Made by a program: the position numbers and the translations under genes
The notes under the pieces: model-generated
Seen by the model: only the letters and a program-made list of their open reading frames with translations
The model's database searches: none
What the model was told of the DNA's origin: nothing
Part shown: in pieces, positions 7,087 to 21,800 of the stretch
How the letters are laid out: each line of letters opens with the position of its first letter
Position numbering within the stretch: position 1 is the first letter of the stretch
IMG/VR virus record: IMGVR_UViG_3300021254_000251
Coordinates: 1 to 21,800 of that record
Strand: one strand, 5' to 3'
DNA from: a virus
DNA length: 21,800 nucleotides

Positions 7087-7638
7087 TTATTCTACGTTTT
7101 TAACTTTTTCTGCTAGGGCTTTAAGCTCTCTCTCTTTACGCTCTTTCTTTTTACGTGCCTTTTTCTCAGCCTGACGTTTGCGGGCGGCCGCACGTTCTTT
7201 TTCTTCTCTTTCTCTTTTAATTCTTTCTGTCTCTTGCTCTTTAAAGAGTTTTTTTGCTTCCTTTACTTTCTTAACCCAATATTTTTGATATTTCATTTCA
7301 TGGGCTTTGTGTTCAACGCCTTCTTTTGTAAACCTATTACTATTTATAAGTTTAGAATAAGCAAGATAAATAGCAAAATCAAAATCGAAAGCATCTTCTT
7401 TATTACATACTGTTTTAATTTGAGTCCCAAATTTAAAAGTAAAACGTAATACTTTATTAGGGACAAGAATTTCAATTTTTACTATTTCTGAATAAAATAT
7501 ATCATCTGTTATTGGATTGTTTTTTGTTTTTTGAATAGCTTTGGCAATAACACTATTTGCATATATGTCACTCGCATTAATAGTAATTGATTGTGATGTT
7601 GGTACTGATGAAAAATGCATAAGTTCTGAATAATTCAT
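7087..7638 (-). CDS. Hypothetical protein with a globular N-domain and a highly charged Lys/Glu/Arg-rich helical C-terminal tail; first gene of the MVP-like operon
   Basis: 183-aa ORF. The C-terminal ~60 aa reads KEAKKLFKEQETERIKREREEKERAAARKRQAEKKARKKKERKERELKALAEKVKNVE. RBS aaaaaggagaaaa. Directly precedes the MVP-like gene (41-nt spacer). Confidence 0.55.
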   Translation of the reverse strand: MNYSELMHFSSVPTSQSITINASDIYANSVIAKAIQKTKNNPITDDIFYSEIVKIEILVPNKVLRFTFKFGTQIKTVCNKEDAFDFDFAIYLAYSKLINSNRFTKEGVEHKAHEMKYQKYWVKKVKEAKKLFKEQETERIKREREEKERAAARKRQAEKKARKKKERKERELKALAEKVKNVE

Positions 7639-7794
7639 TTTTTATTTTCTCCTTTTTTTATTATGATAATATTATATAATAATTTTTTTAAAAGGTCAAA
7701 TTCAAGAAAAATAGGATTTAGGTTTTTTATTTTTAAAAGAATATATAAATAGGAGAATTAGTATAGATTATACTATAAAAAGGAGGAAAAATAG
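7639..7794. promoter_or_regulatory. Divergent intergenic/promoter region between the minus-strand (standard-code) module and the plus-strand (TAG-recoded) structural module
   Basis: 156-bp extremely AT-rich spacer between two divergent start codons. Contains TATAAT/TATAAA-like hexamers on both strands and the RBS aaaggagg 8 nt before the ATG at 7795. Exact promoters cannot be assigned by eye. Confidence 0.4.
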
Positions 7795-10701
7795 ATGCCA
7801 GGAATAAATAATAATTTATACCCACCTATTTTTAAAACAGCATATGCGCCTGCTTTCGCTGATGAATGTAGAGTTTATTTTGCAATATCTAATTATAATA
7901 ATTTAGATGATATTGATATAAATAAAGTACAAGTAATTGTACAAAATCAAAAAACGAATCAATCTGTATTAAAAAAAGAATCATACCCTAGCGGTATAAA
8001 AATTGCGTCTTTAAAAACAGATCTTGAACGAGCAGGAGATGATAGATATTATATTGAATTAATGGATTCTGATATTGAAGGAAAAACGGGTTTTAGTTAC
8101 AATCAATATTATAAAGTTCAAATTAGATTTACTGCGAAGAATAAACAAGTAAAAAATATTTCAAATTCGCAGAAAATAGATAATTGGTTAAATGAAACTT
8201 TACAATATTTTTCTTAGTGGTCAACGGTAGTATTAATAAAACCTGTTAGTCGTTTAAAAATTTCTTTAAAATATTTTGAACAAGAATCTTAGAGTAATAC
8301 TTTAACAACTAATTCTTTTACTGTTCTTGGATAGGTGAAGCATGAAGTTGATTCTGATAAAGAGGAATTAAAAAATTATAGAATATCCGTATATACCGAA
8401 GACGGAGAGTTATTAGAAGATAGTGGATAGTTACTTTTTAATGAGGATAATTAGATTCAATATCATTGCCGATATAATTTTTAGAATGGAGACTATAAAA
8501 TAAAAGTGTCCGTATTAACTAAAAATTTATATTTTCAATAGCAAGTTTTTGATTTTCAGGTGTCCGCCGTTGCTTATACTAATTTTGAGGCAGTGATTTC
8601 TGCGGATATAGATAATAAAAATGCATGCGCGGTTATTTCTGTTAAAAAGGATTTAATGGTTGGGTTGAATACTAATATAGTAATTTAGAGAACTTCTAGT
8701 AAAGAAGATTTTAAATATTGGTAGGATGTTTATACAACTTCAATTCCTGCAAATAGTATTTTAAATTTTACTTGGAAAGATTATACTATTGAAAGCGGCG
8801 TTTGGTATAAATATAGAGTATCTAAACGAAATCAATAGAATTTTAGATCAACACCTATTGAAATAAAAAATCCTATTATGGCAGATTTTGAAGATATATT
8901 TTTAACTAATATCGAAGGACAATTAAAAATTCGATTCGATCCTCAAATTAATAATTTTTCTAAAGTCGTATCGGAGTCCTTAGTAGAAACAATTGGTTCT
9001 CAATATCCTTTTATTAGAAGGAATGGTAAAGTTGGATATAAAACTTTTTCTATCTCTGGAACTATATCTTATTTAACAGATATAGGTTCTAATTTAATGC
9101 ATGCTTCTAAAACATAGCTGTATGGAGATTCGGCAAATTTATATAAAGAATATAATCAATAGAACAATATTAATTTATATAATGATATTACTCAGGAAAA
9201 AGTTTTTCGAGATAAAGTATTAGATTTTTTATATGAGAATAATGTAAAATTGTATAAATCTTCAACAGAAGGTAATCTTTTAGTTAAATTAATGAATATT
9301 AGTTTAACTCCTAATAATACATTAAGTAGACAAATCTATAGTTTTACATGTACTGCATACGAAATTGATACTTTTAATTATAATAATTGTATAAAATATT
9401 TTATTCAAGACCCTGGCCAATACGTTTAGGAAGATATTTTATTAATACAAAGATATGGACAGCTTTATTATCCTAATTTAAGTGTATATTATCCTCAAGA
9501 GGATGAGTCTAAACATTTTAATAATAATGATTTATATTTTGGAGCAGGATAGATTTTATCAACGTTAATAAAACAAAAGTATCAAACTTTAACTAGTGAA
9601 GATATTGATATTAATATAAATAAACTATCTTATTTAAAAATTACTTTAACAAGTCCTCCTTATTTAATTGGAGTGATAGAAAATTAGCCTTATCGTATTA
9701 CAGATAATACATCCGTGGCTAATGCAGTTTATTCTGGCCATATAGTTAAAATTAATGGTGTTCCAATTATAATTAATAAAGACGGCATATATTAGCTTTC
9801 TAATGATGATACGGCAGTCACTTCATTGCAGTTTATTTCTCCTTATGAACAAGGCGTTATAGATTTTGAAGTTTATATAGAAGAAAGCGAAAAACAAAAA
9901 GTGGATTTTAAAGGATATAATAGTTTTAATAAAATAGGTCAGCTATGGGGAACTTTTAGCTTCTTTGATAGTTTAAAAGAAAATCTTTGTAATAATATAA
10001 CAAATAGGTATCTTTTTACAAACGATTCTTATGAACAAGAGGTTCAACAAATTAATGGTATAAGATTTCAGGCGGAGCCTGGAACGGTTATTTTTGTACG
10101 AGAAAATCAAGATGGCCAATACGAAAAACATATTTTAAATGAAACTGGATTATTATAGTTTTATGATTAGGATACTAATATTCAAGGTTTTTATTTTATG
10201 GGACCGAAACTTGAAGAAGTGTCAGCGGAAGAGAAAGATAAATATGGTTTAAAACCTTATCAATTTTTTAATACAAATGAACCTATTACTTTGGATGTTA
10301 TAAAGCATCCGCAAAATAATTATGTTTATTATTTTTCTTCATACAATAGTATTACTGATACTTTAACGGTTCCCGCGGGTTAGCTTCATGATTATGGAGA
10401 TAATGAAATAGATGGTAATGCTTTAGTTATTTCTGATAATACTTTAAATGGTAATTTAATAGGCCCTAATATTTTACAATTATATTCTAATTTAAATGAT
10501 ACTACATATACATGGGACGCTACAAGTCAAGAAGCTAGAGAATTAAATAATGAGACTTTAGGATTATTATTTGCTACTGCTAATAGTTGGATTTATTATC
10601 AAGGTGTGTGGTATCCTTTTTCTCTTGAGCATCAAGTACCTTTAACTCAAACTGAAGCTATAATAGATTATTATTGTACAGTTTTGAAAAGGAGGTATTA
10701 A
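7795..10701 (+). CDS. Large virion structural protein (tail/baseplate module), about 968 codons including about 22 in-frame TAG codons read as sense
   Basis: RBS aaaggagg then ATG 7795. The ORF-track fragments 7795..8217, 8878..9117, 9826..10158 and 10198..10383 share frame 1. Hand reading shows the intervening stretches are open in that frame apart from TAG. The first TAA in frame is at 10699..10701, immediately before the RBS/ATG of the next gene. Function inferred only from operon context. Confidence 0.65.
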
Positions 10702-10706
10702 TTTTT

Positions 10707-12842
10707 ATGAATAAAAGTACAAAATATCAAAAGTATTTGAATGATGCCGCTTTTTTAAAATAGCTTACTGAATTACATATAAAAGATTATTTTGTAAAAA
10801 TAGCTGTTTTAGATTGGAAAGAGAATTTTATTGAAAATATTGAAGGTAAAGTAATAAGCGCAAGTATTAATATAGATGGGAATAGTATTATTCGTCGTAC
10901 CGCAACTTTAAGTGTATTAATAGATGAAACTAATAATGATATTACTAACGTTAAAAATATTTTATCTATTAATAAAAAAATTAATTTACAAATAGGTTTT
11001 ATTAATAGCACGGATAAATATTTAGATGAGCCTATTATTTGGTTTCCTCTTGGAGTTTATGTAATAACTGATAATTCAATTTCTTATTCAAGCACTGGAT
11101 TGGTAGCATCGTTACAATTAAAAGATAAAATGTGTTTATTAAACGGTAATTGCGGTGGGACCTTTCCCGCATCAGTTATTTTTGATACTTATACGACTGT
11201 TGATGAAAACGGACATGAAGTAATTGAGCGACCTACTATTTATCAAATTATTCAAGAGTTAGTAAATCATTTTGGCGGGGAGCAGCTTGGAAAAATTATT
11301 ATTTCTGATTTAGATAACCGTGTTAAACAAGTTATGAAATGGACCGGGAATTCGCCTTTATATGTTGCTAAATTTTCTTAGGATCAATATTTTTATACAA
11401 CGGATTCTAGTAATCCTAATATAGTAAAAAATAATCAGAAATTTCCAAAACAGGCTTTTGAATATGGAGAAGATGTAGGATATATTTATACAGATTTTAC
11501 ATATCCTGGAGAATTAATTGGAGACGCGGGTAGCACTATTACTGATATACTAGAACAGATAAAAAATGTATTAGGTAATTTTGAATATTTTTATGATTTA
11601 AATGGCAATTTTGTTTTTAGATAGAAAAAAAATTATTTAAACAATGCTCAATCTAAATATATTTTAGATAATGTTAAGGCAGAAGAGAATGATAGAACTA
11701 TCTTACCTGATTATATTAATTCTTTAGGGTAGAACAATGCATTAAGTGCTTATTTAATTGAAATAAATAATGGAACTTCCGCCTATGAATTTAATAATAG
11801 TAATTTAATTTCTAGTTATAGTAATACTCCAAAATATAGTGAGATAAAAAATGATTTTGTAGTATGGGGTATTAGAAAAAGTACATAGGGGATAGAGATT
11901 CCGCTCCGTTATCACTTAGCTATTGATAAAAAACCTCAAATAAATAATTCTTATTATGTTTTTGAATATTAGGATGAAACTGATGGATTAAAAAAATGGT
12001 ATCGTCCAATATTTTTAGAAACAAATAAAGATCGACCTACAAAAGGAAGCGCGGGAGTCTTTTATTGTGTGGGCGCATCTGAAGAAAAGATAAAAGAAAA
12101 ATAGTCTAAAATAGCAAGTTTTCCTATTTATAAATGGGGAGATAACGGTTATGAAAAAATAGATTCTCACTTAGAGAAAATCACTACAAAAGATTGGCGG
12201 ACATAGTTATTGATGCAAGGTTTAGAAGGCAATGTATTAGGAACTGAAAGTAATTATTATTTTGCGGAATTGTTTAACGAATGGCCTCAAATATATGATG
12301 TAAGAGCAGGTAAATTTTTTAAAGAGACACTTAATAATCCTACATAGATAAATTATTTTTTAGATTTTATTGATGCTCCCGCATCTCCTATTGCAGAACT
12401 TGATGTAAATAATATAGGTCGCCGCACGAAAGTTTTTAATGAAGAATCTAATGTTAATTGCGTTTTTTAGGCATGGATTCCAGATTTAATATTAATAAAT
12501 ACTGATGATGAAGATAAAGGAATTTTAACAGAATAGTGTGTTGCAAGAGGTCAGCCATATTATCAAGTTGGCCCTGAAATCTATGATTCTCTTGAGACAG
12601 GCGGTTTTCGTTATTCCGCATACGAAGAAATTAGACAAGTAATTCATTAGTATACTAAATATAATGAATCTATTTCTTTACAAACGATACCTATTTATTA
12701 TCTTGAACCTAATACTAGAATTACCGTTAATAATACAGAAAGTAATATTTATGGAGATTATATGATTGAAAGTTTATCTTTTACTCTTGATAATTCTAGT
12801 ATGCTAACCATTAATGCAACAAGAGTTCCAGATAAGATTTAA
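10707..12842 (+). CDS. Virion structural protein (tail/baseplate-associated), about 711 codons with about 13 in-frame TAG
   Basis: RBS aaaaggagg at 10687..10695 and ATG 10707. Single frame (includes ORF-track fragment 11100..11381). Only TAG interrupts until TAA at 12840..12842. C-terminal ...IYGDYMIESLSFTLDNSSMLTINATRVPDKI. The next gene's RBS follows directly. Confidence 0.65.
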
Positions 12843-12856
12843 AGGAGATAAAAGGA

Positions 12857-13567
12857 ATGAGTTATCAAATAGGACAATTTAGAAAAGAAATGAAATCTAA
12901 TTATTTAAATTAGTTTTCATCTTTCCATAGCCAAAAAGTAAAAACAAGTACATAGATTTCAACAGATATTTATTTTTAGGATATAGGGTTTTTATTTGAT
13001 GGCGGGCAAAGTTTTGAACATGGAAAAAATTATTATGTAAAATTAAAAATAAAAAGAAGTTTAACAAATGATTTTAATTTTACATTAGTATTACAAGAAA
13101 GGGATGAAAGTCAAGTCTACAATGAACAATTTTTAAAGACTTTTTATCTTCCAAAACTTCAAAATAATGAAGATACTAACGATAGTTTAGTTGTAGAGGT
13201 TGTTTTCAATCCATTAGTAAATTTTAATTATTTAACATTAAAGTTAAATAGAACTGCGGAAGATTTTAATATTAAAAACGATGATAAAAGCGCAGGAAGA
13301 CTTTTTGAAGTGGTTGAAGAAGAATGTAATTGTTATTAGATTGAAAATGTAATTTCGTCTATCGCAGGAGTAAATGAATTTATAAAAATTGGTGTACAAG
13401 GTCCTTCAGGATTTTTAATGTGTATTAATGGAGAAGAAATAAGAATTGGACCGAGTGGAATTTATTAGATAAAAAATGGATATAAAATAAATTTTATAGG
13501 ATTCATTATAACGGCAGCAGATAATAACTCTTCTAATAATTATTTTATATTAGATTATCAATATTAA
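12857..13567 (+). CDS. Structural protein, 236 codons with 5 in-frame TAG; contains IGVQGPSGFLMCINGEEIRIGPSGIY segment
   Basis: RBS aaaggagataaaagga and ATG 12857. Frame is open except for TAG until TAA 13565..13567. The next gene's RBS overlaps the stop. Confidence 0.6.
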
Positions 13568-13584
13568 AAGGAGAATGTAACAAT

Positions 13585-16224
13585 ATGAATTACGGAAGTT
13601 TTTATGGAGGCCGCAGAGGAACCTCTTTTATTATTGCAAAAAGCTATCCCGATATTATATCTATGACGAATGATTTTGCGGAAGGGAATGATTTTTTAGA
13701 CGTTGCATATGATGAATATGTACTTATTAATACAGTAAATAAAAATCATCCTGATAACGGAAAACTGTTCAGAAGAGGGTATGATTATAATAGCAATAGA
13801 ACGATTTCTGGGACAAGAGCATATGATAGTAATGGAGACGAGATAATTAATGGAACTTAGCAGCAATATCTTGAAGCTACATATGTATTAAAAAATGATA
13901 TTCCCGCGCATGGCGCAGTCTATATAGGAACAATTGTAGGTCCTTCAGGGCGAGGCTCGCTTTTATCTTTTGTGTCATATGATAAGGTTGAAGAATATAA
14001 AAATAATACACCTGATACAAGAAAGATGGGCGGATCTGGAACTGCGGAATTGATGCCTGGTAAAGATAGTCAAGGTAATTATAATGATGATATTTTATGG
14101 AACAGCGTTTCTATTATATCGAATAATCATGAATCAAGTACTGCTTATATTGGTTTTAAAATTCCGTATCCTGTAATAGACTTTGAAATAAAAGAAATTA
14201 CTCCATATCAATAGTCAGAAATCGTAAGAATTGACGATCAAATGCACCCATTTTATGAAAAATGGTCAATAGCAATTCCGCCAGGAAAATTTGGTAATGC
14301 TGTAATAAGTATGAAAAAAATAAATACAGCTAATTATTTTTCTGATGATTCTACTATTACTGATTTTTTACCACCTATTTATTCTACACCTCAAAGTAAT
14401 GAGGCAATGAGCATAGAAGATTTTAAGGCGGCGGGTATATAGGAAGGCGACGATATAATTGTTTATTAGTATAAAGATTATGCTAATAATGCAGATTTAA
14501 GTAAAACAAAATTATGTTATTTAGCACCTCACAAACAAATTGAAAATATTAATATTAATTCTGAAAATGGAACATTAACAATCTCTTATACAGATAATAA
14601 AGTAGATACGTTTGAAAATGCGATTTCCGCAGTTAAGTAGCTATCTTTTACTAATGGAGTATTACGTATAAAATATAATACAGGCCAAGAGGTTAATATT
14701 GATATTATTTATATAGATAAAGTTTTATTAAATGATAACGGTATCTTAGCATATAAGAAGAATATAGAAGATCCTAATTTTGATTTAGAAGCGGTTACCG
14801 CCGATGATACAGATCATGTGTTAGGAATAATAAAATGGATAGATAATATTCAATATGATAATACATCAAAGAATTTAAGAATTAATTATAATACTGAAAA
14901 TACTTAGGATATTTCTATTCCTTATATTAGTGATATTACTTTTTTAGAAGATGGAACCGTGCAAATCAGAAAAGGCGGAGATGATTGGGAAAACGTTACC
15001 TATACAGAGAATGGATAGACAAAAGATAGGGTTCTTAAATGGATAGATAATATTACTTATAATCGTGATAATGATTCTGTACAAATTTTTTATAATACAG
15101 ATAAAGAACGCCCAGGCACTATATTTTCTAATGTTTTTAATCGTATTTTAAGAATAGAATTTCAGGAAGATGTTTCTTTTGATGATGGTTCTACTGGACC
15201 AGGTTTTATTATTTCTTATGCAGATGAATCAACAGATAAAATTCATTTTTCAACAGGCCACTTAATAAAGAGTATGTCTATTGTTTCTGGCGGGCCGGAA
15301 GAAAGCGAAGGCGGGGAAACAACTTATTCTAATTCTAAACTTGCAATTCAATATACTGATAATTCTGTAGAAGAATTAGATTTAAACGGAAAATTAATTA
15401 GTAATATGTCTTTTGTAAGTGATGAAGGTACAGATATTCCGACTTCTAATTTAATAGTTACCTATGATAATCAACAAACTCAATCTTTGAATTTTGTTTA
15501 TCCAAGAAGTGCTGTAGTAGAAGATTCTACAATAGAAGATTCTCATAAAATAAAATTTTATGATTCTCTAGGCCAACAAATGTCAGAGTCAAATCCTATT
15601 ACGGGTATTGAGAGTGTTATTATAGATGAAAATAATAGGTTATTAGTTCTTTATAATAATCCAACCGCGCGCGATAGTATTCCCGATACTAGAGCTGTTG
15701 TTAGAACAGGATTAAATGGTACAGCTTTAACATGGGATGATTTAGGGCTTGTCCGCACTAATTCAGGTCTTTTGATTGGTAAAAATTTAAAAATGGAATA
15801 GATACAGCCTGTAGGTAGTGAATAGCCATTAACAATTGACCAAATTATTGCTTATTTAAATGAAAATTATACAGATGGATAGGTTAATGGGTCATTATAT
15901 CGTATTATAACTATTGGATAGGATTTAGAAAATAAACAATTTTATGGTTTTGACACTGAAAAAGCTACTTGGTATTTATTAGGATCTATTCCTGAAGCCA
16001 TTCCAGGAAGTAAAGATTGTGTTTGCGGAACTCTTGAAGATTTTAATTCTGCTTTTGATGTTAAAAAATATGAATTAATCACTGGTGGACTTTTCTTTAT
16101 TGTAAAAGATGATGAAGAAGTAGAGGAAGAATCAGAACCTATTTATGATGGAGATATTCCTGATGAAGAAGATATTCCTGAATAGGAGGAACCACTTTCA
16201 GACGAGATTGAGGAGGGTATCTAA
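13585..16224 (+). CDS. Large structural protein, probably fibre/receptor-binding, with internal repeated beta-rich modules; 879 codons with about 13 in-frame TAG
   Basis: RBS aaaggagaatg...ATG 13585. ORF-track fragments 13585..13860, 13972..14214, 14242..14442 and 15274..15801 are all frame 1 and are joined by TAG only. TAA at 16222..16224. Internal repeats such as KWIDNIQYDNTSKNLRINYNTENT / KWIDNITYNRDNDSVQIFYNTDKE. Acidic C-terminus DGDIPDEEDIPEQEEPLSDEIEEGI. Confidence 0.65.
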
Positions 16225-16226
16225 TT

Positions 16227-16535
16227 ATGAATGGTTATCAGGGACAAATTCGTGCTAGAGATGCTTCAAATAAAAAGTTTTTAGCAGGACAAGATATTAT
16301 ATCTTTAATTCAAGAGCAAACTACTCCAACTATAAAATATTTAAAAAGAATTGGTATTTTTGCTCCATAGGGAACGAAGGTATCAATTAATAATACAAAT
16401 GATAGTACAGTGGAAAAGATTATATAGATTGGAAAAACTAAAATCTATTAGGTAGAAGATGTAGAAATAAGAGAGTTCCACTTTCTTTAGGACTCTACTT
16501 CTGAAGTTATTATAGATTATATTATAGAATATTAA
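16227..16535 (+). CDS. Small hypothetical protein (102 aa if the 4 in-frame TAG are sense)
   Basis: RBS gaggaggg 10 nt upstream of ATG 16227. 103 codons free of TAA/TGA in very AT-rich DNA, ending TAA 16533..16535, followed by a terminator hairpin. Weaker than its neighbours. Confidence 0.45.
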
Positions 16536-16583
16536 GGTCAAAAAGTATTAAATCTTATTTTTGATTTTTGATTTATGAAAAGG

Positions 16584-16626
16584 AAAGGATATTAATTTTA
16601 AAAAGATTAATATCCTTTTCTTTTAT
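16584..16626 (+). terminator. Rho-independent terminator after the first structural sub-operon
   Basis: 13-bp perfect inverted repeat aaaggatattaat (16584..16596) / attaatatccttt (16606..16618) followed by ttcttttat. Confidence 0.6.
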
Positions 16627-16644
16627 ATATAAGGAGAAATATAT

Positions 16645-17466
16645 ATGGATAAATTAAAATATATTCGAGTACAGAATAAAGATGGTACTTTTGGTAATAA
16701 AATTCCTGTTGCAGTAGATAGTAATAATATTATTATGTCTGATGGAGATACTCTTCAAAATTTTGCAAATGATATTGAAAATGATCTTGGGCAAATAACT
16801 GAGGAAATAAAAGGTTCTCATACTGGACAAAACGGAAAAGTTTATCAAAATTTAAAAGAACATCTTAATGATATATCAGCACAGATAGAAAATGAAAAGA
16901 TTTTAACTTTAGTTATCTCTAATGAAGTCCATATTATTCCTACTGATGAAAATGGCGCAGGAGGAGATTTTTCTCATTGTTTTTCTAATATAATTGTGTA
17001 TTATGGAGAACAAGATATAACGGATAGTGAAGATATTGTTTGGGATGTTAATATTCCTGATAATATATTAGCTTTATGGGATGAAGAATCTTATAAAATT
17101 ACAATAAAAAATATGGTAAACGATAGTGCTGTTATTTCTATTCATATTACATATAAAAATAAAGAAAGTTAGAAAAAAATAATTGTTAAAAAAGTAAAAG
17201 GAGGAAAAACTCCTATTGTAGTAGAAATAGAATCAAGCGCCGGAAATATTTTTAAAAATGGAGGAATTAATACAACTTTAAAAGCTATAGTTAAAAGAGG
17301 CGGAGAAGATATTAGTAGTTCCGTTACTAATTTTCATTGGATTAAATATAATCAAAATGGAGAGAGGGATTTAAATTGGAGTAAAACTAATTCTCAAACT
17401 ATTTAGTTAACGTCTCTTGACTTCACAAATAAAGCAATTTTTATTTGTGAAGTAACAATAAATTAA
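16645..17466 (+). CDS. Fibre-associated structural protein, 273 codons with 2 in-frame TAG
   Basis: RBS aaggag and ATG 16645. After the TAG at 17170 the frame continues (KKIIVKKVKGGKTPIVVEIESSAGNIFKNGG...) to TAA 17464..17466 with no new start codon nearby. N-terminal MDKLKYIRVQNKDGTFGNKIPVAVDSNNIIMSDGDTLQNF resembles tail-fibre N-termini. Confidence 0.6.
17421..17452 (+). promoter_or_regulatory. Perfect 13-bp stem-loop inside the 3' end of gene 16645..17466
   Basis: cttcacaaataaa (17421..17433), loop gcaatt, tttatttgtgaag (17440..17452). No U-run follows. The next gene's RBS aaggaagg is 15 nt downstream. Confidence 0.35.
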
Positions 17467-17480
17467 GGAAGGAAATAAAT

Positions 17481-19955
17481 ATGGCGCAGACTACTTATGG
17501 TTCAATTACACTTACTTCTTATAATTCTATAACAAAAATAGAAGTTTATTATTATAAATCAACTAGTGCCGTGGCTCTCTCTGGGGGGTCGTGGTCTACT
17601 ACTAATCCCACTTGGGAAAATGGTAAATATATATGGCAGAAAATTAAAACGCTTTATGAAGATGGATCAAGCACAGAAAGTGATGCAGTAAATATTACAG
17701 GTCAGCAAGGTAAATCTGGTGAAGCTGCATTTTCATATAAGTTAACTTCATCTGAATCTGTAATTGTATTATTAAAAACAGGAGAATATTCAACTAATTA
17801 GATTACTTTCAACGCGACATATAAACAGGGCAATAATCCAATTGCATCATATGATGGTGGATTTGTTATTCAATATTCAATAAATGGCGTTGAATGGGTT
17901 ACAGATTATACGTCATTAGAGAATGAATCATCTAAAATTTACACCGTACCTGAAAATATATTAATTATTAAGTGTTTATTATATCAAACTAAAGATTGTG
18001 ATGAATTACTAGATATTATAACTGTTCCCATTGTCAAAGATGGTATTGATGGAACTGGAGTGATGACTAATTTATTCCCTATTTATTTAGTATCTGATAA
18101 AGATAAAGGTATAACTCTTGATGATCATGGGTGGACAAGATTTAAACCATCACTTGATACTGAAAACAAATATTTATGGATTGATTATATTTCAAGATAT
18201 GCTGAAGGTAATATAAAGCCACAGTTGATTGAAAAGACTGGTAATAAAATTGCTTTTGACTATCATGGTGAGAGAAGTCCTTTTGAAAGCATAATTATTG
18301 ACATTACACCCGTTCAATCTGGAAGTGGCGCACCCTCTTTAGGTAACAAACGCCATATAAGTGGTTGGACAAGTATTGATATAAGGCAGGCTGATATTAA
18401 TCTTATGCCCTATGAAGCAGGAAAATATATGCTGGGTTTATCAGAAGATAGTGGCACTCTTAATAATTAGATATTAAATTTAGAAAACACAATGTTTACG
18501 ATACAAGGAGACACCTTAATCATTACAAAGGGCGATTTAGGAACACATATTGCATTTCCTGAAGAAGTTGGCACTGTTTATGGTGGTAAATACAATGTTA
18601 CTACAGGTGTATTAATGATCACACATGGTTATATTGATAAATATAATAATGAGCCTCTTCCTTCAACTTGGATTTCTGATCGTGATGTATATGTAAAAGG
18701 CACTAAACCGTCAGTTGATGCATAGGTAGTTTTTGAATTGAGTGAACCCCTAGTATATGAATTAACGCCTCAGGAAATTATGATTTTTGAACATTCAAAT
18801 TCTATTTATGCTTCTACGGGCGATATATCAATTTCTTATTATGATTATCAAACTATGACCAGTCCTTACATAGATTATGCGCTTGTGTCTGTTTTTGATG
18901 CTTCTACTGCTGCATTAGAAGAGGCGACTCAATTAAAACAAGATTTTCAAGAATTACAAGAAGATATTCAAACACAACTTGACCAAAAAGTTGAAACATG
19001 GTGTCAAATTAATGACCCCGCCCTGTCTTGGACTACAACTGATTTAAAATAGCAGCATAATGGAGACATTTGGTATTATATCGGAGAATCTAATATGTCA
19101 TATAAAAATAATACGACTTATAAATATGTGGCTTCAACAGGAAAATGGATGCCATATGCAGTAAGTGCTGATCTTTTTGATAAAATAGATATGAAAACTA
19201 CTATTTATTATGGTGAAATTACAGATACATTCTCTAATATAGAAGCAGGTGATTATCTTGTAGATTCTACGAATGGAAGCACTTATAGATATGAAAATGA
19301 CCAATGGATTAAAGTAACAGATTATACCTCTGCTATAAATGAATTAGAGTAGAAAATTTTAACAGCTTTAAATAATAAAGTAAATAGAACTGGAGATACT
19401 TTTACAGCTTCTGTGGGTATTAATAATGGATACCTTTTAGCAAAGCATGATGACAACTAGTGTTATCTTGAAGCTATGGGGGAAGCAGGTGGTAAAGCAC
19501 GATTAATGTCTATGAAAGATAGTCCAATTATTGGTCTTTATGGTGTTTATAATGATGCAAGTCAATGGTCAGTTCAACATGATTGTAGTACAAATAAAAC
19601 AGAATTACCAGCATTAGTTATGAGTAGTTCCGCGTCTGGAACAGTCGGATCTTCATTCTCTGGGGCATCTCAAAAATATTGTTATTTATATAAAATTGGT
19701 AAGATTGTATTTATGAGTATGAGTTTAGGGTATTCAGATAACTCGACTACTATAGCTACGAATACAACTTTATTCACTGTTCCTACAGGTTATAGACCCG
19801 CGGCTGAAGCACGTCTACCTGCGCAAATTGATAGCAAAACGTCTGCTCAAAGTTATCCAGCAAGTATAACTGTAGCAACTAATGGTCAAATTCAGCAAAA
19901 TACTAGTAGCGCGGCGACAGGTATTTATTGTTTCGGTATGTGGGAAACCAATTAA
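17481..19955 (+). CDS. Tail fibre protein with phage-tail-repeat-like motifs, 824 codons with 6 in-frame TAG
   Basis: RBS aaggaagg and ATG 17481. ORF-track fragments 17481.., 18060.., 18492.., 18738.., 19095.. and 19476..19955 are all frame 0 and joined by TAG only, ending TAA 19953..19955. N-terminal SITLTSYNSITKIEVYYYKSTSAVALSGGSWSTTNPTWENGKYIWQKIKTLYEDGSS and later KYLWIDYISRYAEG fit the Y...T.P.....Y.W.R phage-tail-repeat pattern. Ser/Thr-rich C-terminal domain. Confidence 0.7.
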
Positions 19956-19974
19956 TTAAAAGGAGGTGATTAAG

Positions 19975-20946
19975 ATGGATGATAATGTAATTATAGCTAA
20001 ATTTAATCATAATTCAGAAATCACAACTAAACCAAGCACTCAATGGAATCGTGGGCAAATTCTTAAAATTAAAGGAATCCATGATTTACCGTCTACTTTT
20101 GAGGTAGAAACTTCCAATTATAGAGAGTATGGTGCCAAAAGATATTTAGGTTAGAATTATGAATTCGTAATTCCAGATGAATATTTTGAATCTGGGAAAA
20201 TGATTTATATCTGGATTATGAAACGAGTCGAGTCTTCAGATATTACATCAAAATATCTTGTGAAAATTCCACTTAGGACACGTCAGAAGCCTTTAGATTA
20301 TGATGTAGATTCTGAAAAAAGGGACATTGTAGCAGAAGCTATTGTTGCTTTACAGAACGCTGAAACAGAAATTAATTCTAAAATGGATGATGTTATTGAA
20401 TATGAACAAAAGATAACTAAAGTTGAAGAATCATTTAATAATCTGACAGCATTGGCAACTACTCTCCCGCCCGGTTCTGAGGCGACTGTTGATAAGTCAA
20501 AAGATGAAGAAGGAAATTATATGATCTTCAACTTTGGCATCCCTAAGGGAGAAAAAGGTGATAAGGGCGACACTGGTGCCAAGGGCGATAAGGGTGATAC
20601 ATATACTCTTACTCCACAAGATAAGACTGATATTATCAATGCATATAAAGAAGATATGACTGAACAAACCAATCAGATATTGGCCAACTTACGGGAAGAA
20701 GTGGATGAAACTATGACCACAATGGAACGGCATGAACAGACTGCGAAACAGTATTCTGATCAATCTGTCGCGTCAGCTGAGTCTGCACAAGTAAGCGCTG
20801 ATAGGGCTGAACAGGCTGCAAGTCAAGGTGGTTACATGTATTTTACTATTGAAGATGGTAATTTAATTATGGAAAAGACATCTAACGTAGATGTTGATTT
20901 CAGTATTGAAGATGGAAATTTATATATGGAGGTGGGGAATGTATGA
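19975..20946 (+). CDS. Tail fibre/fibre-associated protein with a short collagen-like G-X-Y repeat (GEKGDKGDTGAKGDKGDT); 323 codons with 1 in-frame TAG (20152..20154)
   Basis: RBS aaaggagg 19959..19966 and ATG 19975. The ORF-track pieces 19966..20154 and 20200..20946 are in the same frame and separated only by the TAG. Ends with TGA 20944..20946, overlapping the next ATG (ATGA). Confidence 0.6.
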
Positions 20947-21173
20947 GTGATCTTGTAAAAAAAGACTTGGGTACTGTAAGTGCTTATAAGTATGCTAAGT
21001 TGCATGGTTATACGGGTACTGAAGATGAATTCGGAGTGCTTATGGCTAGTTATGCAAGTGTTGCGCAAGAAGCTAGGCAGTTTGCTCAAAGTGCAAGTCA
21101 GTCTGCTGAAGCGACACGGAATTTATTTAATAGTATTCGAGTAGTAGATACAACACTTGAGATAGGAGAATAA
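20943..21173 (+). CDS. Small protein (76 aa) between fibre genes; Ala/Ser/Gln-rich helical C-terminal half
   Basis: ORF track. Start overlaps the upstream stop (ATGA), suggesting translational coupling. TAA at 21171..21173. Confidence 0.5.
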   Translation: MSDLVKKDLGTVSAYKYAKLHGYTGTEDEFGVLMASYASVAQEARQFAQSASQSAEATRNLFNSIRVVDTTLEIGE

Positions 21174-21175
21174 AT

Positions 21176-21800
21176 ATGAGTGTAATAGATAAAATTAAAC
21201 TTGATGGGACTACCTATGATGTAGGTAAGACGCCCGATACCACTCTTGCTGTTAGCGGATCTCCTGCTGATGCTGCAAAAGTTGGTACTGAATTAGATAA
21301 AAAAGTAGATAAAGTCACGGGAAAAGGACTGAGCACAGAAGATTTTACTACAGCTGAAAAAACAAAGTTGGCTGGAATTGCTGAAGGAGCAACAGCACTG
21401 ACGATTGACCCGACACTGACGAAGGAAGGGCAGGCCGCAGATGCGTCTGAGACTGGGAATAAAATAACTAGTTTAAAGGAAGATTTAGATGAGAACGTTA
21501 ATGATTTAAAGAGCGGTATTATAAATGTCATCGACACAACCCTTGAACTTACCCGCAAAGCACCGGAATCTGTGGCAAATAACTACGGGCTTTTGTCTAC
21601 TGGATATGCAAAATACAATACAAGCTGTTGTGTGCTTAAATACCCTGTCACAGAAGGAAGCACCATACTCATTAAATCCCCGACTCCCGCAGTAAGCAAT
21701 TATGCAAGTTTCCAGTTCCAGAGTGCTGCAGGTGCTTCAGAATCAAGCAACGTCAATCTTGTGGGGACACCTTACACAACGAAGACCTACGGTTATATCG
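21176..21800 (+). CDS. Tail fibre / receptor-binding protein (N-terminal part; continues beyond window)
   Basis: ATG 21176, 2 nt after the previous TAA. Hand translation gives MSVIDKIKLDGTTYDVGKTPDTTLAVSGSPADAAKVGTELDKKVDKVTGKGLSTEDFTTAEKTKLAGIAEGATALTIDPTLTKEGQAADASETGNKITSLKEDL.... The DKV.GKGLS..DFT..EK.KL.GIE.GA block is a motif I recognise from tail fibres and hyaluronidase N-termini of Gram-positive phages. Open to the end of the window with no TAG/TAA/TGA. Confidence 0.7.
   Translation, partial: MSVIDKIKLDGTTYDVGKTPDTTLAVSGSPADAAKVGTELDKKVDKVTGKGLSTEDFTTAEKTKLAGIAEGATALTIDPTLTKEGQAADASETGNKITSLKEDLDENVNDLKSGIINVIDTTLELTRKAPESVANNYGLLSTGYAKYNTSCCVLKYPVTEGSTILIKSPTPAVSNYASFQFQSAAGASESSNVNLVGTPYTTKTYGYI

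What the first reader, a model, noticed from the sequence alone, without database searches (positions are those of the whole stretch)
7795..20154. Late/structural operon is written in a recoded genetic code: TAG is a sense codon (probably Gln)
Seen directly: of 17 plus-strand ORF-track entries between 7795 and 20154, 16 end in TAG. Consecutive fragments within a gene always share the same reading frame (7795/8878/9826/10198 frame 1; 13585/13972/14242/15274 frame 1; 17481/18060/18492/18738/19095/19476 frame 0). Reading codon by codon across the gaps, I find only TAG interruptions and no TAA or TGA over stretches of 2-3 kb in DNA that is about 70% AT. Each chain of fragments ends at a TAA placed a few nt before a strong GGAGG-type RBS and the next ATG. 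Treating TAG as sense gives eight clean, tightly packed genes of 100-970 codons containing about 60 TAGs by my hand count. TAG often sits next to CAA (caa tag caa at about 8539; aat caa tag aat at about 8833 and 9156; tat caa tag at 14209). CAG is rare. This fits TAG arising from CAG and encoding Gln, as in other amber-recoded phages; established examples are crAss-like and Lak phages and the recoded gut phages with suppressor tRNA(CUA). Ser/Trp/Tyr cannot be excluded from this window alone. No suppressor tRNA gene is visible here, so it must lie elsewhere or be supplied by the host.
Basis: partly seen in the sequence, partly recalled or inferred. Interest (0 to 1): 0.9.

Follow-up and report, generated by a model that had tools for sequence, protein, structure and literature searches.

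The report
Phage reads TAG stop as glutamate
The tail and lysis genes of this ~140-kb gut phage are full of in-frame TAG "stop" codons that are read as an amino acid, and comparison with dozens of relatives indicates glutamate rather than the glutamine assumed for all recoded phages so far, so public databases mistranslate these proteins.

Summary
With TAG as sense, 7795-20946 (+) becomes eight tightly packed genes (102-968 aa) holding 61 in-frame TAGs and no internal TAA or TGA. The leftward early genes avoid in-frame TAG (at most one disputed case). An independent public gene caller gives the same eight models.

- I defined conserved columns on 45 TAG-free relatives. The window has TAG at 7 of 26 Glu-conserved columns, 0 of 12 Gln-conserved columns and 1 of 509 others.
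- 32 related recoded genomes show the same pattern: 150/749 at Glu columns, 2/347 at Gln columns.
- Six other relatives show the opposite pattern (2/150 and 26/67). So the method does detect Gln where Gln is used.
- In the same genome's endolysin, two conserved TAG sites align with Glu in 5 of 5 non-recoded phage endolysins.

The source genome (ENA ERZ1756110 scaffold, identical over 21,094 bases) encodes its own tRNA(CUA) about 12.7 kb beyond the window. That tRNA has tRNA-Glu hallmarks.

I found no report of TAG-to-Glu in phages. Public databases translate these sites as Gln.

This is a new variant of a known phenomenon. No proteomic proof exists.

The parts
7795..10701 (+). g1: 968-aa tail/baseplate-module protein with 19 in-frame TAG, ending in TAA. 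TAGs at 8215 and 9793 fall in Glu-conserved columns.
   Evidence: Searches give the gene model. PHROG 30026 matches residues 291-537 across 5 TAGs. Full-length alignments to relatives. Conserved-column test.
10707..12842 (+). g2: 711-aa tail protein with 12 in-frame TAG, ending in TAA. TAGs at 11622, 12204, 12468 and 12534 fall in Glu-conserved columns.
   Evidence: PHROG 32343 and tail PHROG 1887. More than 4000 homologues. Syntenic with Enterococcus phage VRE9/EF1 genes. Column tests. The public protein P0001 has Q at all 12 sites.
12857..13567 (+). g3: 236-aa protein with 5 in-frame TAG, ending in TAA. The TAG at 13466 falls in a Glu-conserved column.
13585..16224 (+). g4: 879-aa protein with 12 in-frame TAG, ending in TAA. 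The TAG at 14467 is the only window TAG in a conserved non-Glu column (Asp).
16227..16535 (+). g5: 102-aa protein with 4 in-frame TAG. Three of them (residues 67, 75, 88) align with GAA/GAG in nearly all close relatives.
16580..16622 (+). 20-bp hairpin followed by a T-rich tract, between g5 and g6. It looks like a terminator and may split the block into two transcription units.
   Evidence: This is a pattern match only.
16645..17466 (+). g6: 273-aa tail-fibre-like protein with 2 in-frame TAG.
   Evidence: PHROG tail and tail-fibre families 3267 and 6468. Gene model.
17481..19955 (+). g7: 824-aa tail-fibre-like protein with 6 in-frame TAG, ending in TAA.
19975..20946 (+). g8: 323-aa protein with a collagen-like GDKGDTGAKGDKGD stretch and 1 in-frame TAG (20152-20154), ending in TGA.
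7642..7794 (.). Divergent intergenic gap between the TAG-poor leftward block and the TAG-rich rightward block. It holds a strong leftward promoter-like site at 7699-7671 (TTGACC-17-TATAAT).
   Evidence: consensus match only. Gene layout.
1..7641 (-). Leftward block of genes. Complete genes have no internal in-frame TAG, except the disputed TAG at 2967-2969. All end in TAA. It encodes a phosphoesterase, an AAA_33 kinase, an RNA ligase, an MVP-shoulder protein and others. It serves as the standard-code-compatible contrast to the late block.
20943..21800 (+). Two further rightward genes without TAG: a 76-aa ORF (20943-21173) and the start of an 816-aa Metallophos-domain protein (21176 onward).

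Best explanation
The window is part of a ~140-kb virulent-type gut phage whose late genes (tail, fibre and endolysin) are written in a code where UAG is a sense codon for glutamate.

Shown:
- TAG is in frame 61 times in eight genes that otherwise stop only at TAA or TGA.
- These TAGs occupy positions that are Glu in TAG-free relatives.
- The same genome carries its own tRNA with anticodon CUA, inside an array of at least 20 tRNAs about 12.7 kb to the right of the window.
- That tRNA has the architecture of a Bacillota tRNA-Glu.

Inferred:
- After infection the phage expresses this suppressor tRNA, and a host GluRS charges it with Glu.
- It is not converted to Gln, because it lacks the U1-A72 pair that bacterial GatCAB requires.
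- It competes with release factor 1 at UAG.
- About 18% of the Glu positions in late proteins therefore depend on the phage tRNA. Late proteins can be completed only once the tRNA is present, while early genes, almost free of TAG, are translatable at once in a standard-code host.
- This is the late-gene translational lock proposed for other recoded phages, reached here with a different amino acid.
For: 1. TAG is sense.
- Eight clean ORFs with ribosome-binding sites.
- The chance of no TAA or TGA is about e^-271.
- Homologues and PHROG profiles align across the TAGs.
- Identical gene models come from an independent caller.

2. TAG behaves as Glu at the DNA level, so the test is not circular.
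- Partners of TAG in five close relatives are 35% Glu, 13% Asp and 5% Gln. Glu codons give almost the same profile (37/13/6). Gln codons give 9% Glu and 42% Gln.
- The likelihood ranks Glu first, with Asp 194 and Gln 227 log units behind.
- Among six genomes, 26 of 35 invariant-Glu columns contain TAG, against 2 of 22 invariant-Gln columns (Fisher 1.5e-6).
- Against 45 TAG-free relatives, all 26 Glu-conserved columns contain TAG in at least one recoded genome.
- 32 genomes put TAG at 150/749 Glu-column codons, 2/347 Gln-column codons and 21/13461 other codons.
- The window itself scores 7/26, 0/12 and 1/509.
- Positive control: six relatives show the reverse pattern (2/150 Glu, 26/67 Gln), so the method calls Gln where Gln is used.

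3. A second gene agrees. The genome's GH25+CHAP endolysin has 9 TAGs. At the two conserved sites, 5 of 5 unrelated phage endolysins (Dorea phage, Dulem viruses, gut phage contigs), none recoded in the aligned region, have Glu.

4. Composition agrees. Late genes have 66 Glu + 14 TAG = 80 per 1000 codons. Early genes have 80 Glu per 1000.

5. The tRNA.
- The window is identical to ENA ERZ1756110 scaffold_1573790 over 21,094 bases.
- tRNA(CUA) lies at L023 5834-5909 and scores 53 bits on Rfam tRNA.
- It has U11-A24, a 13.22 mismatch giving a 3-bp D stem, A46, a 4-nt variable loop lacking nucleotide 47, and A73.
- It shares the acceptor GGCTC/GGGCT with the genome's own tRNA-Glu(UUC).
- Its D arm is one base from GGTCAARCGGTTAAGAC. 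In 120 Bacillota genomes that motif sits in 111 tRNA-Glu (87 UUC, 24 CUC) plus one read ambiguously as Glu or SeC, out of 112.
- Among 595 Bacillota tRNAs, tRNA-Glu is its best-matching isotype and Gln is not in the top eight.
- A relative (L188) carries an almost canonical Bacillota tRNA-Glu with a CUA anticodon.
- Published identity rules name U11-A24, the 13-22:46 triple and the absence of nucleotide 47 as major GluRS determinants (PMC9976931). They name U1-A72 as the GatCAB determinant (PMC2811023).
Against: - There is no peptide evidence. Everything is comparative.
- In E. coli, GluRS reads U34 and C36 as strong determinants (PMC9976931). The suppressor has C34 and A36, so efficient glutamylation is not guaranteed. 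It may need a tolerant host GluRS or a factor in the roughly 90 kb of genome I could not read.
- The tRNA has a G7.G66 mismatch, and its isotype margin is modest (best identity 0.70 to Glu, 0.66 to Thr).
- The window itself has Gln at 2 of 26 Glu-conserved columns, so Gln is tolerated at some such sites.
- About half of the window's TAGs lie in variable columns and say nothing.
- I have no usable homologue columns for g7 and g8, and only about 86 residues of one relative for g6.
- The nearest named relative, phAss-1, was reported as TAG-to-Gln (PMC10607447). NCBI files it under 'Caudoviricetes code 15 clade'.
- The host and its aaRS/GatCAB set are unknown.
Confidence: 0.85

Rival explanations
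1. Standard 'code 15': TAG is read as glutamine through a Gln-type suppressor, as in crAss-like, Lak and phAss-1 phages. The Glu signal would be only tolerated Glu/Gln exchange.
For: - It is the only amber reassignment described for phages with standard-code hosts (Borges preprint; Peters et al.).
- phAss-1, which shares the g2 homologue at 32% identity, was reported as Gln.
- Six relatives in this family do show a Gln pattern.
- The window has Gln at 2 Glu-conserved columns.
Against: - If TAG were Gln, it should swap freely with CAA/CAG at conserved Gln columns. The window has 0/12 and the 32 E-type genomes 2/347, against 20% at Glu columns.
- The partner profile of TAG equals that of Glu codons, not Gln codons.
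- Gln is 227 log-likelihood units worse than Glu.
- The genome's tRNA(CUA) differs from its own tRNA-Gln(UUG) and lacks U1-A72.
- Endolysin sites align with Glu in 5 of 5 homologues.
Confidence: 0.06
2. Mixed or non-standard decoding: UAG is read ambiguously, or as a modified or non-canonical acidic residue that evolution treats like Glu. Partial GatCAB amidation of Glu-tRNA(CUA) would give both Glu and Gln.
For: - Comparative data only show that the residue is interchangeable with Glu.
- Many Bacillota make Gln-tRNA through Glu-tRNA (PMC9976931), so a Glu/Gln mixture is chemically plausible.
- ARAGORN labels the tRNA 'Pyl' by anticodon alone.
Against: - The near-absence of TAG at Gln-conserved columns argues against a large Gln fraction.
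- The tRNA has a normal cloverleaf with a TTCGA T loop and a 4-nt variable loop. It lacks tRNA-Pyl features (6-bp anticodon stem, 3-nt variable loop, tiny D loop).
- No pyl or aaRS genes appear in the ~50 kb of the genome that I read.
Confidence: 0.07
3. No recoding: the fragments are separate short genes or pseudogene debris under the standard code, or the TAGs come from assembly or sequencing error.
For: Under table 11 the region is a string of short ORFs, and GenBank annotators split the phAss-1 homologue into five CDS.
Against: - No TAA or TGA occurs in 4316 codons (about e^-271).
- Only the first fragment of each chain has a ribosome-binding site and ATG.
- Homologues, including TAG-free ones, align through every TAG.
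- The same sequence was assembled independently in ENA and Logan data.
- TAG positions differ between relatives but keep the frame.
Confidence: 0.01

Closest known systems
Amber-recoded gut phages using genetic code 15 (TAG to Gln): crAss-like, Lak and Sapphire clades, and phAss-1 / NCBI 'Caudoviricetes code 15 clade'
   Same: - In-frame TAG is concentrated in structural and lysis genes.
- Early genes are almost TAG-free.
- TAA is the dominant stop.
- The phage encodes its own tRNA(CUA) within a large tRNA array.
- The habitat is the human or animal gut, and the genome exceeds 100 kb.
- The g2 homologue is shared with phAss-1 (32% identity).
   Different: - The amino acid: TAG tracks Glu, not Gln.
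- The suppressor is tRNA-Glu-like. One phAss-1 CUA tRNA has a 4-bp D stem and an unpaired 1-72 position and is closest to Bacillota tRNA-Trp.
- Published surveys list suppressor isotypes Gln, Trp, Ile and Tyr, not Glu (PMC10879173). One states that only TAG-to-Gln and TGA-to-Trp were seen.
Peritrich ciliate nuclear code (NCBI table 30: TAA/TAG to Glu); other ciliate UAG reassignments are described in PMC11687900, of which I saw only the title and abstract
   Same: A stop codon is reassigned to glutamate through a tRNA-Glu-type adaptor, whose anticodon differs from a Glu anticodon at position 36 (the table and this point are from my own knowledge).
   Different: - That is a eukaryotic nuclear genome in which the whole organism uses the code and the release factor is altered.
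- Here a virus uses the code for a subset of genes inside a host that presumably reads UAG as stop.
- Only TAG is reassigned here, not TAA.
Late-gene 'code switch' model for recoded phages (Borges et al., bioRxiv 10.1101/2021.08.26.457843)
   Same: - Recoded codons sit in tail and endolysin genes and not in replication or repair genes.
- TAG-free, Glu-type and Gln-type lineages occur within one protein family, which fits rapid code change.
   Different: - No release-factor gene or aaRS was seen in the ~50 kb read.
- Timing of expression is untested.
- The holin has 0 TAG while the endolysin has 9.
Enterococcus phages EF1/EF5/VRE9 (~140 kb, standard code)
   Same: They have syntenic homologues of g1 (PHROG 30026) and g2 (PHROG 32343).
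   Different: - They have no in-frame TAG.
- Protein identity is only 26-29%.
- They serve as a standard-code outgroup: Glu sits at 4 of the 11 window TAG positions that align, Gln at 1.

Membership tests
Stop-codon-recoded phage (amber sense codon, any amino acid) | In-frame TAG in genes whose homologues are continuous, with TAA/TGA as the only real stops | tested here: met
   61 in-frame TAGs in 8 genes. Full-length alignments span them. All genes stop at TAA or TGA.
Stop-codon-recoded phage (amber sense codon, any amino acid) | Phage-encoded suppressor tRNA with anticodon CUA | tested here: met
   Absent from the window. Present in the identical source scaffold at L023 5834-5909, about 12.7 kb beyond the right end.
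Stop-codon-recoded phage (amber sense codon, any amino acid) | Recoding biased to late (structural and lysis) genes | tested here: met
   Tail genes have 14 TAG per 1000 codons and the endolysin has 9 TAGs. The RNA-repair, gyrase and other leftward genes have 0, apart from a few small or mobile ORFs. 'Late' is inferred from function, not measured.
Genetic code 15 (TAG = Gln) | TAG positions correspond to Gln in standard-code homologues | tested here: not met
   The window has TAG at 0/12 Gln-conserved columns and 7/26 Glu-conserved columns. E-type genomes score 2/347 against 150/749. Endolysin sites align with Glu in 5 of 5 homologues.
Genetic code 15 (TAG = Gln) | Suppressor tRNA of glutamine type (U1-A72 or a weak first pair, G73, Gln-like D arm) | tested here: not met
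   The tRNA has G1.U72, A73, a Glu-type D arm and a 4-nt variable loop. It is unlike the genome's tRNA-Gln(UUG).
Proposed TAG = Glu code | TAG positions correspond to Glu in TAG-free homologues, with a Glu-like substitution profile | tested here: met
Proposed TAG = Glu code | Suppressor tRNA carries GluRS identity elements outside the anticodon (U11-A24, non-Watson-Crick 13-22 with A46, no nucleotide 47) | tested here: met
   Sequence read. Identity rules from PMC9976931. The D-arm motif is specific to tRNA-Glu in Bacillota.
Proposed TAG = Glu code | Glu is actually inserted at UAG during translation | not testable with these tools
   This needs proteomics or aminoacylation assays.
Pyrrolysine decoding of UAG | tRNA-Pyl architecture and pylSBCD genes | tested here: not met
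   The cloverleaf is ordinary. No pyl genes occur in the ~50 kb read. The rest of the genome was not read.

The most novel reading that the evidence does not exclude
A previously undescribed genetic-code variant in prokaryotic viruses: UAG = glutamate.
- It is carried by a tRNA-Glu-derived CUA suppressor.
- A large clade of ~120-180-kb gut and rumen phages of Bacillota uses it.
- Sister lineages in the same family use UAG = Gln or no recoding, so the same stop codon was captured independently for two different amino acids.
- Current pipelines (code 15) and public protein databases write Gln at thousands of true Glu positions.
Probability: 0.6. Interest if true: 0.85.

Novelty: new variant of a known kind. 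Interest (0 to 1): 0.8.

Why it matters
- Stop-codon recoding in phages has been treated as two codes, TAG-to-Gln and TGA-to-Trp, and explained by the special ease of hijacking GlnRS and TrpRS. A TAG-to-Glu lineage would show a wider set of possible reassignments and would implicate GluRS.
- Three states (TAG-free, Glu-type and Gln-type) occur in one protein family. That gives a natural system for asking how a stop codon is captured and what decides the amino acid.
- Code-15 translation puts the wrong residue at about 1.4% of positions in the late proteins of this clade. For example, all 12 TAG sites of g2 are Gln in the public entry. This affects structure prediction, proteomic searches and annotation.
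- A natural Glu-inserting amber suppressor could also be useful for genetic-code engineering in Gram-positive bacteria.

Tried and rejected
- Megablast of the late block against 50,697 phage records found nothing. The phage has no close cultured relative.
- Pfam gave no significant domain for g1-g8. Their roles therefore rest on PHROG tail and tail-fibre hits.
- PDB alignments of the endolysin placed TAG 32 at a variable position (Leu/Ser/Ala), which is uninformative.
- The ARAGORN label 'tRNA-Pyl' comes from the anticodon only. I rejected it on structure.
- The nucleotide context around TAG (-1 and +4) does not differ from that of GAA/GAG.
- The CAA-neighbour and rare-CAG arguments are not significant.
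- A first full MAFFT run timed out.
- I tried to find the suppressor of the six Gln-type relatives with a phAss-1-like tRNA pattern. It hit only other contigs, and their fetched flanks hold no tRNAs. The tRNA contrast between Glu-type and Gln-type lineages within the family is therefore untested.
- Six literature searches for amber-to-glutamate in phages found no report. The library is incomplete, so absence is not proof.
- TGA-sense and TAA-sense readings do not improve the ORFs.

Full report
**Observation**

The window is 31% G+C. Under the bacterial code, the plus strand from 7795 to 20154 is a string of short ORFs. All 17 ORFs of at least 60 aa were checked: 16 end in TAG and one in TAA, and fragments keep a common frame within each gene.

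If only TAA and TGA stop translation, the region becomes eight adjacent genes:
- g1 7795-10701
- g2 10707-12842
- g3 12857-13567
- g4 13585-16224
- g5 16227-16535
- g6 16645-17466
- g7 17481-19955
- g8 19975-20946

Each has a GGAG-type ribosome-binding site and an ATG. Sizes run from 102 to 968 aa. Together they hold 61 in-frame TAGs and no internal TAA or TGA.

From base composition, TAA or TGA is expected at 6.1% of codons. Their absence from 4316 codons has a probability near e^-271.

The complete leftward genes of 517-7641 have no internal in-frame TAG and stop at TAA; the exception is the TAG at 2967-2969, which is either a stop or a sense codon. The partial gene at 1-527 has none in its true frame.

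TGA-sense and TAA-sense readings do not help. The block really ends at 20946, not 20154.

**Are the chains single genes?**

PHROG profiles match across several TAGs: g1 residues 291-537 and g2 residues 6-414. Homologues from eleven other contigs align end to end with g1-g5.

The public protein collection holds more than 4000 full-length relatives of g2. Its own gene caller predicts proteins of 968, 711, 236, 879, 102, 273, 824 and 323 aa on a contig that is identical to the window over 21,094 bases: ENA ERZ1756110 scaffold_1573790, 140,477 bp.

The rival reading of separate genes or debris is excluded.

**Which amino acid?**

I compared codons, not database translations, so that a caller's choice of Gln could not feed back into the result.

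*Five close recoded relatives (50-69% identical in g2).*
- The sense codons opposite TAG are GAA/GAG in 35% of cases, Asp codons in 13% and Gln codons in 5%.
- That is the profile of Glu codons (37/13/6). Gln codons give 9% Glu and 42% Gln.
- A likelihood built from the same alignments puts Glu first, with Asp 194 and Gln 227 log units behind.
- In columns where all sense codons of the six genomes agree, TAG accompanies Glu in 26 of 35 columns, Gln in 2 of 22 and Asp in 0 of 40 (Fisher 1.5e-6 for Glu against Gln).

*Eighty further loci from IMG/VR, mapped codon by codon onto the window.*
- 38 genomes carry in-frame TAG, at 5-24 per 1000 codons.
- 45 relatives have none in 700-2500 aligned codons. 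These served as a standard-code reference.
- Columns at least 80% conserved in the reference set comprise 26 Glu, 12 Gln and 509 other columns.
- All 26 Glu columns contain TAG in at least one recoded genome.

*The recoded genomes split cleanly into two groups.*

| Group | Glu columns | Gln columns | Other columns |
|---|---|---|---|
| 32 genomes | 150/749 | 2/347 | 21/13461 |
| 6 genomes | 2/150 | 26/67 | 12/2836 |
| Window | 7/26 | 0/12 | 1/509 |

The window's seven Glu-column TAGs are at 8215, 9793, 11622, 12204, 12468, 12534 and 13466. Its single other-column TAG is in an Asp column.

The six Gln-type genomes are a built-in positive control. The method finds Gln where Gln is used, and it does not find Gln in the window's lineage.

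*A second, unrelated gene agrees.* The genome's GH25+CHAP endolysin lies outside the window and has 9 TAGs. At the two TAGs inside the conserved CHAP-like region, all five unrelated phage endolysins (none recoded in the aligned region) have Glu.

*Composition fits.* Glu plus TAG is 80 per 1000 codons in late genes, and Glu alone is 80 per 1000 in early genes.

*The public translation shows the expected artefact.* The public g2 entry has Gln at all 12 TAG sites. In an alignment of 120 database homologues there are 15 two-state Glu/Gln columns, a class second only to Ile/Val, and only one near-invariant Glu column. That is the expected signature of Glu sites being written as Gln.

**The adaptor**

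The window has no tRNA. I walked along the identical scaffold and found an array of at least 20 tRNAs. It includes tRNA(CUA) at L023 5834-5909, which corresponds to about 34.5 kb in window coordinates, on the opposite strand. Rfam confirms it as a tRNA at 53 bits.

Its sequence is GGCTCGGTGGTCAAACGGTTAAAGACGCTGGTCTCTAAAACCAGAGATTTGAGTTCGACTCTCAAGCGGGCTACCA. It folds with these features:
- G1.U72 and A73;
- U11-A24 and an A13.A22 mismatch, giving a 3-bp D stem;
- A46 and a four-base variable loop lacking nucleotide 47;
- an acceptor (GGCTC/GGGCT) shared with the genome's own tRNA-Glu(UUC).

It is unlike the genome's tRNA-Gln(UUG).

A review of tRNA identity lists U11-A24, the 13-22:46 triple and the absence of nucleotide 47 as major GluRS determinants (PMC9976931).

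The D-arm motif GGTCAARCGGTTAAGAC is one base shorter than the suppressor's. I searched for it in bacterial genomes. The first 120 hits were almost all Bacillota. The tRNAs carrying it were 111 tRNA-Glu (87 UUC, 24 CUC) plus one read ambiguously as Glu or SeC, out of 112.

Against 595 Bacillota tRNAs of all isotypes, tRNA-Glu is the best match both for this suppressor and for the second suppressor family found in relatives. Gln is not among the top eight.

One relative (L188) carries what is nearly a canonical Bacillota tRNA-Glu with a CUA anticodon.

By contrast, one CUA tRNA of phAss-1 has a 4-bp D stem and an unpaired first position and is closest to tRNA-Trp. Another has a long variable arm.

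**Mechanism**

*Shown:* a sense TAG that tracks Glu, a phage-borne Glu-type tRNA(CUA), a TAG-rich late block and a nearly TAG-free early block.

*Inferred:*
- A host GluRS charges the tRNA.
- The product stays Glu, because bacterial GatCAB needs U1-A72 (PMC2811023) and the tRNA has G1.U72.
- The tRNA competes with RF1.
- Completion of tail and lysis proteins then depends on expression of the tRNA array. This is the timing lock proposed for recoded phages.

*Weak points:*
- C34 and A36 replace two strong anticodon determinants of E. coli GluRS.
- The host is unknown. Endolysin relatives come from Dorea, Coprococcus and Clostridium phages, and the tRNA looks Bacillota-like.
- About 90 kb of the genome was not read, so a phage aaRS or release-factor gene cannot be excluded.
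- No protein-level data exist.

**Comparison and novelty**

Late-gene amber recoding with a phage tRNA(CUA) is well known, and NCBI even has a 'Caudoviricetes code 15 clade' that holds phAss-1. On that level the finding is a new member of a known kind.

The amino acid is the difference.
- The main survey states that only TAG-to-Gln and TGA-to-Trp were observed.
- Proteomic validation concerned Gln.
- A survey of 180 suppressor tRNAs reported Gln, Trp, Ile and Tyr isotypes.
- One huge-phage study left the residue unresolved.
- Six full-text searches found no amber-to-Glu phage.
- Stop-to-Glu is known to me only from ciliate nuclear codes (table 30, from my own knowledge).

I therefore rate it a new variant of a known kind.

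A rough neighbour-joining tree of g2 places the window in one of two Glu-type clades. The Gln-type lineages nest among TAG-free ones. This suggests several code changes within the family, but a single-protein distance tree cannot settle that.

**Verdict**

| Claim | Probability |
|---|---|
| TAG is sense | about 0.99 |
| TAG tracks Glu in this lineage | about 0.85-0.9 |
| Charging route as described | about 0.6-0.7 |
| Both true and previously undescribed | about 0.6 |

Noticed in passing
window 1-2826, minus strand: A calcineurin-like phosphoesterase (1-527), an AAA_33/KTI12-type kinase (517-1008), a 184-aa ORF and an RNA ligase with a PHA02142 OB fold (1600-2826) lie in a row. This looks like an RNA/tRNA repair cassette of the T4 Pnk/Rnl type. 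That would make sense in a phage that depends on at least 20 tRNAs of its own, including the suppressor.
   Followed up: partly
window 4557-7046, minus strand: An 829-aa protein has a Major Vault Protein shoulder domain (PF11978, E 1.9e-23) and a vault repeat. A close relative also shows a weak Band_7 hit. This is an unusual domain for a phage, its function is unknown, and it is TAG-free.
   Followed up: no
window 2829-3611, minus strand: This gene is absent from a relative (L014) whose g2 protein is 96% identical to the window's. It has a single TAG at 2967-2969. Either it stops there (214 aa, leaving a 140-nt gap), or TAG is sense (260 aa, with the TAA at 2829-2831 abutting the RNA ligase start). 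The public caller chose 260 aa. It may be a mobile insertion.
   Followed up: partly
L023 1481-2098 (same genome, about 38 kb in window-equivalent coordinates): A ROOL RNA (Rfam RF03087, 289 bits, full length) sits inside the phage tRNA array, a few kb from the suppressor tRNA.
   Followed up: no
L015 16436-19846 (same genome, left of the window): The gyrase/topoisomerase IV A-subunit gene is split into 169-aa and 608-aa parts by a GIY-YIG ORF that itself has 4 in-frame TAGs. The relative L014 has an intact 781-aa gene. This is probably an intron or homing-endonuclease insertion.
   Followed up: no
L015 11617-13353 (same genome): The r1t-type holin has 0 TAG while the adjacent GH25+CHAP endolysin has 9. 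If recoding gates lysis, it acts through the endolysin and not the holin.
   Followed up: partly
Loci L179, L183, L187, L202, L209, L228, compared with 32 other recoded loci and 45 TAG-free loci: Within one family of g2 homologues there are three states: no in-frame TAG, TAG at Glu columns and TAG at Gln columns. Four genomes (L175, L181, L201, L206) have only 1-2 TAGs and may be at the start or end of recoding.
   Followed up: partly
L025 12445-12610 (phAss-1, OQ749652.1): The two adjacent CUA tRNAs of phAss-1 are of different types. One is about 75 nt and closest to Bacillota tRNA-Trp. The other is about 91 nt with a long variable arm, like Ser, Leu or Tyr tRNAs. The published assignment of TAG to Gln for that phage may deserve a codon-level re-check.
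   Followed up: partly
L009 21504-21579, L010 20347-20422, L016-L022, L189, L192, L205: A second suppressor family (consensus CGCCCGATAGTGGAGTGGCTTAACAC...CTCTAAA...GGATCCTGGGTTCGAATCCCAG...) has C1-G72, a G2.U71 wobble, A73 and a 5-nt variable loop. It is shared by both Glu-type clades. It also matches tRNA-Glu best, but less typically than the window genome's tRNA.
   Followed up: partly
window 16580-16622: A perfect 20-bp AT-rich hairpin followed by a T-rich tract lies in the only sizeable gap (110 nt) of the late block. It may be a terminator or a processing site.
   Followed up: no
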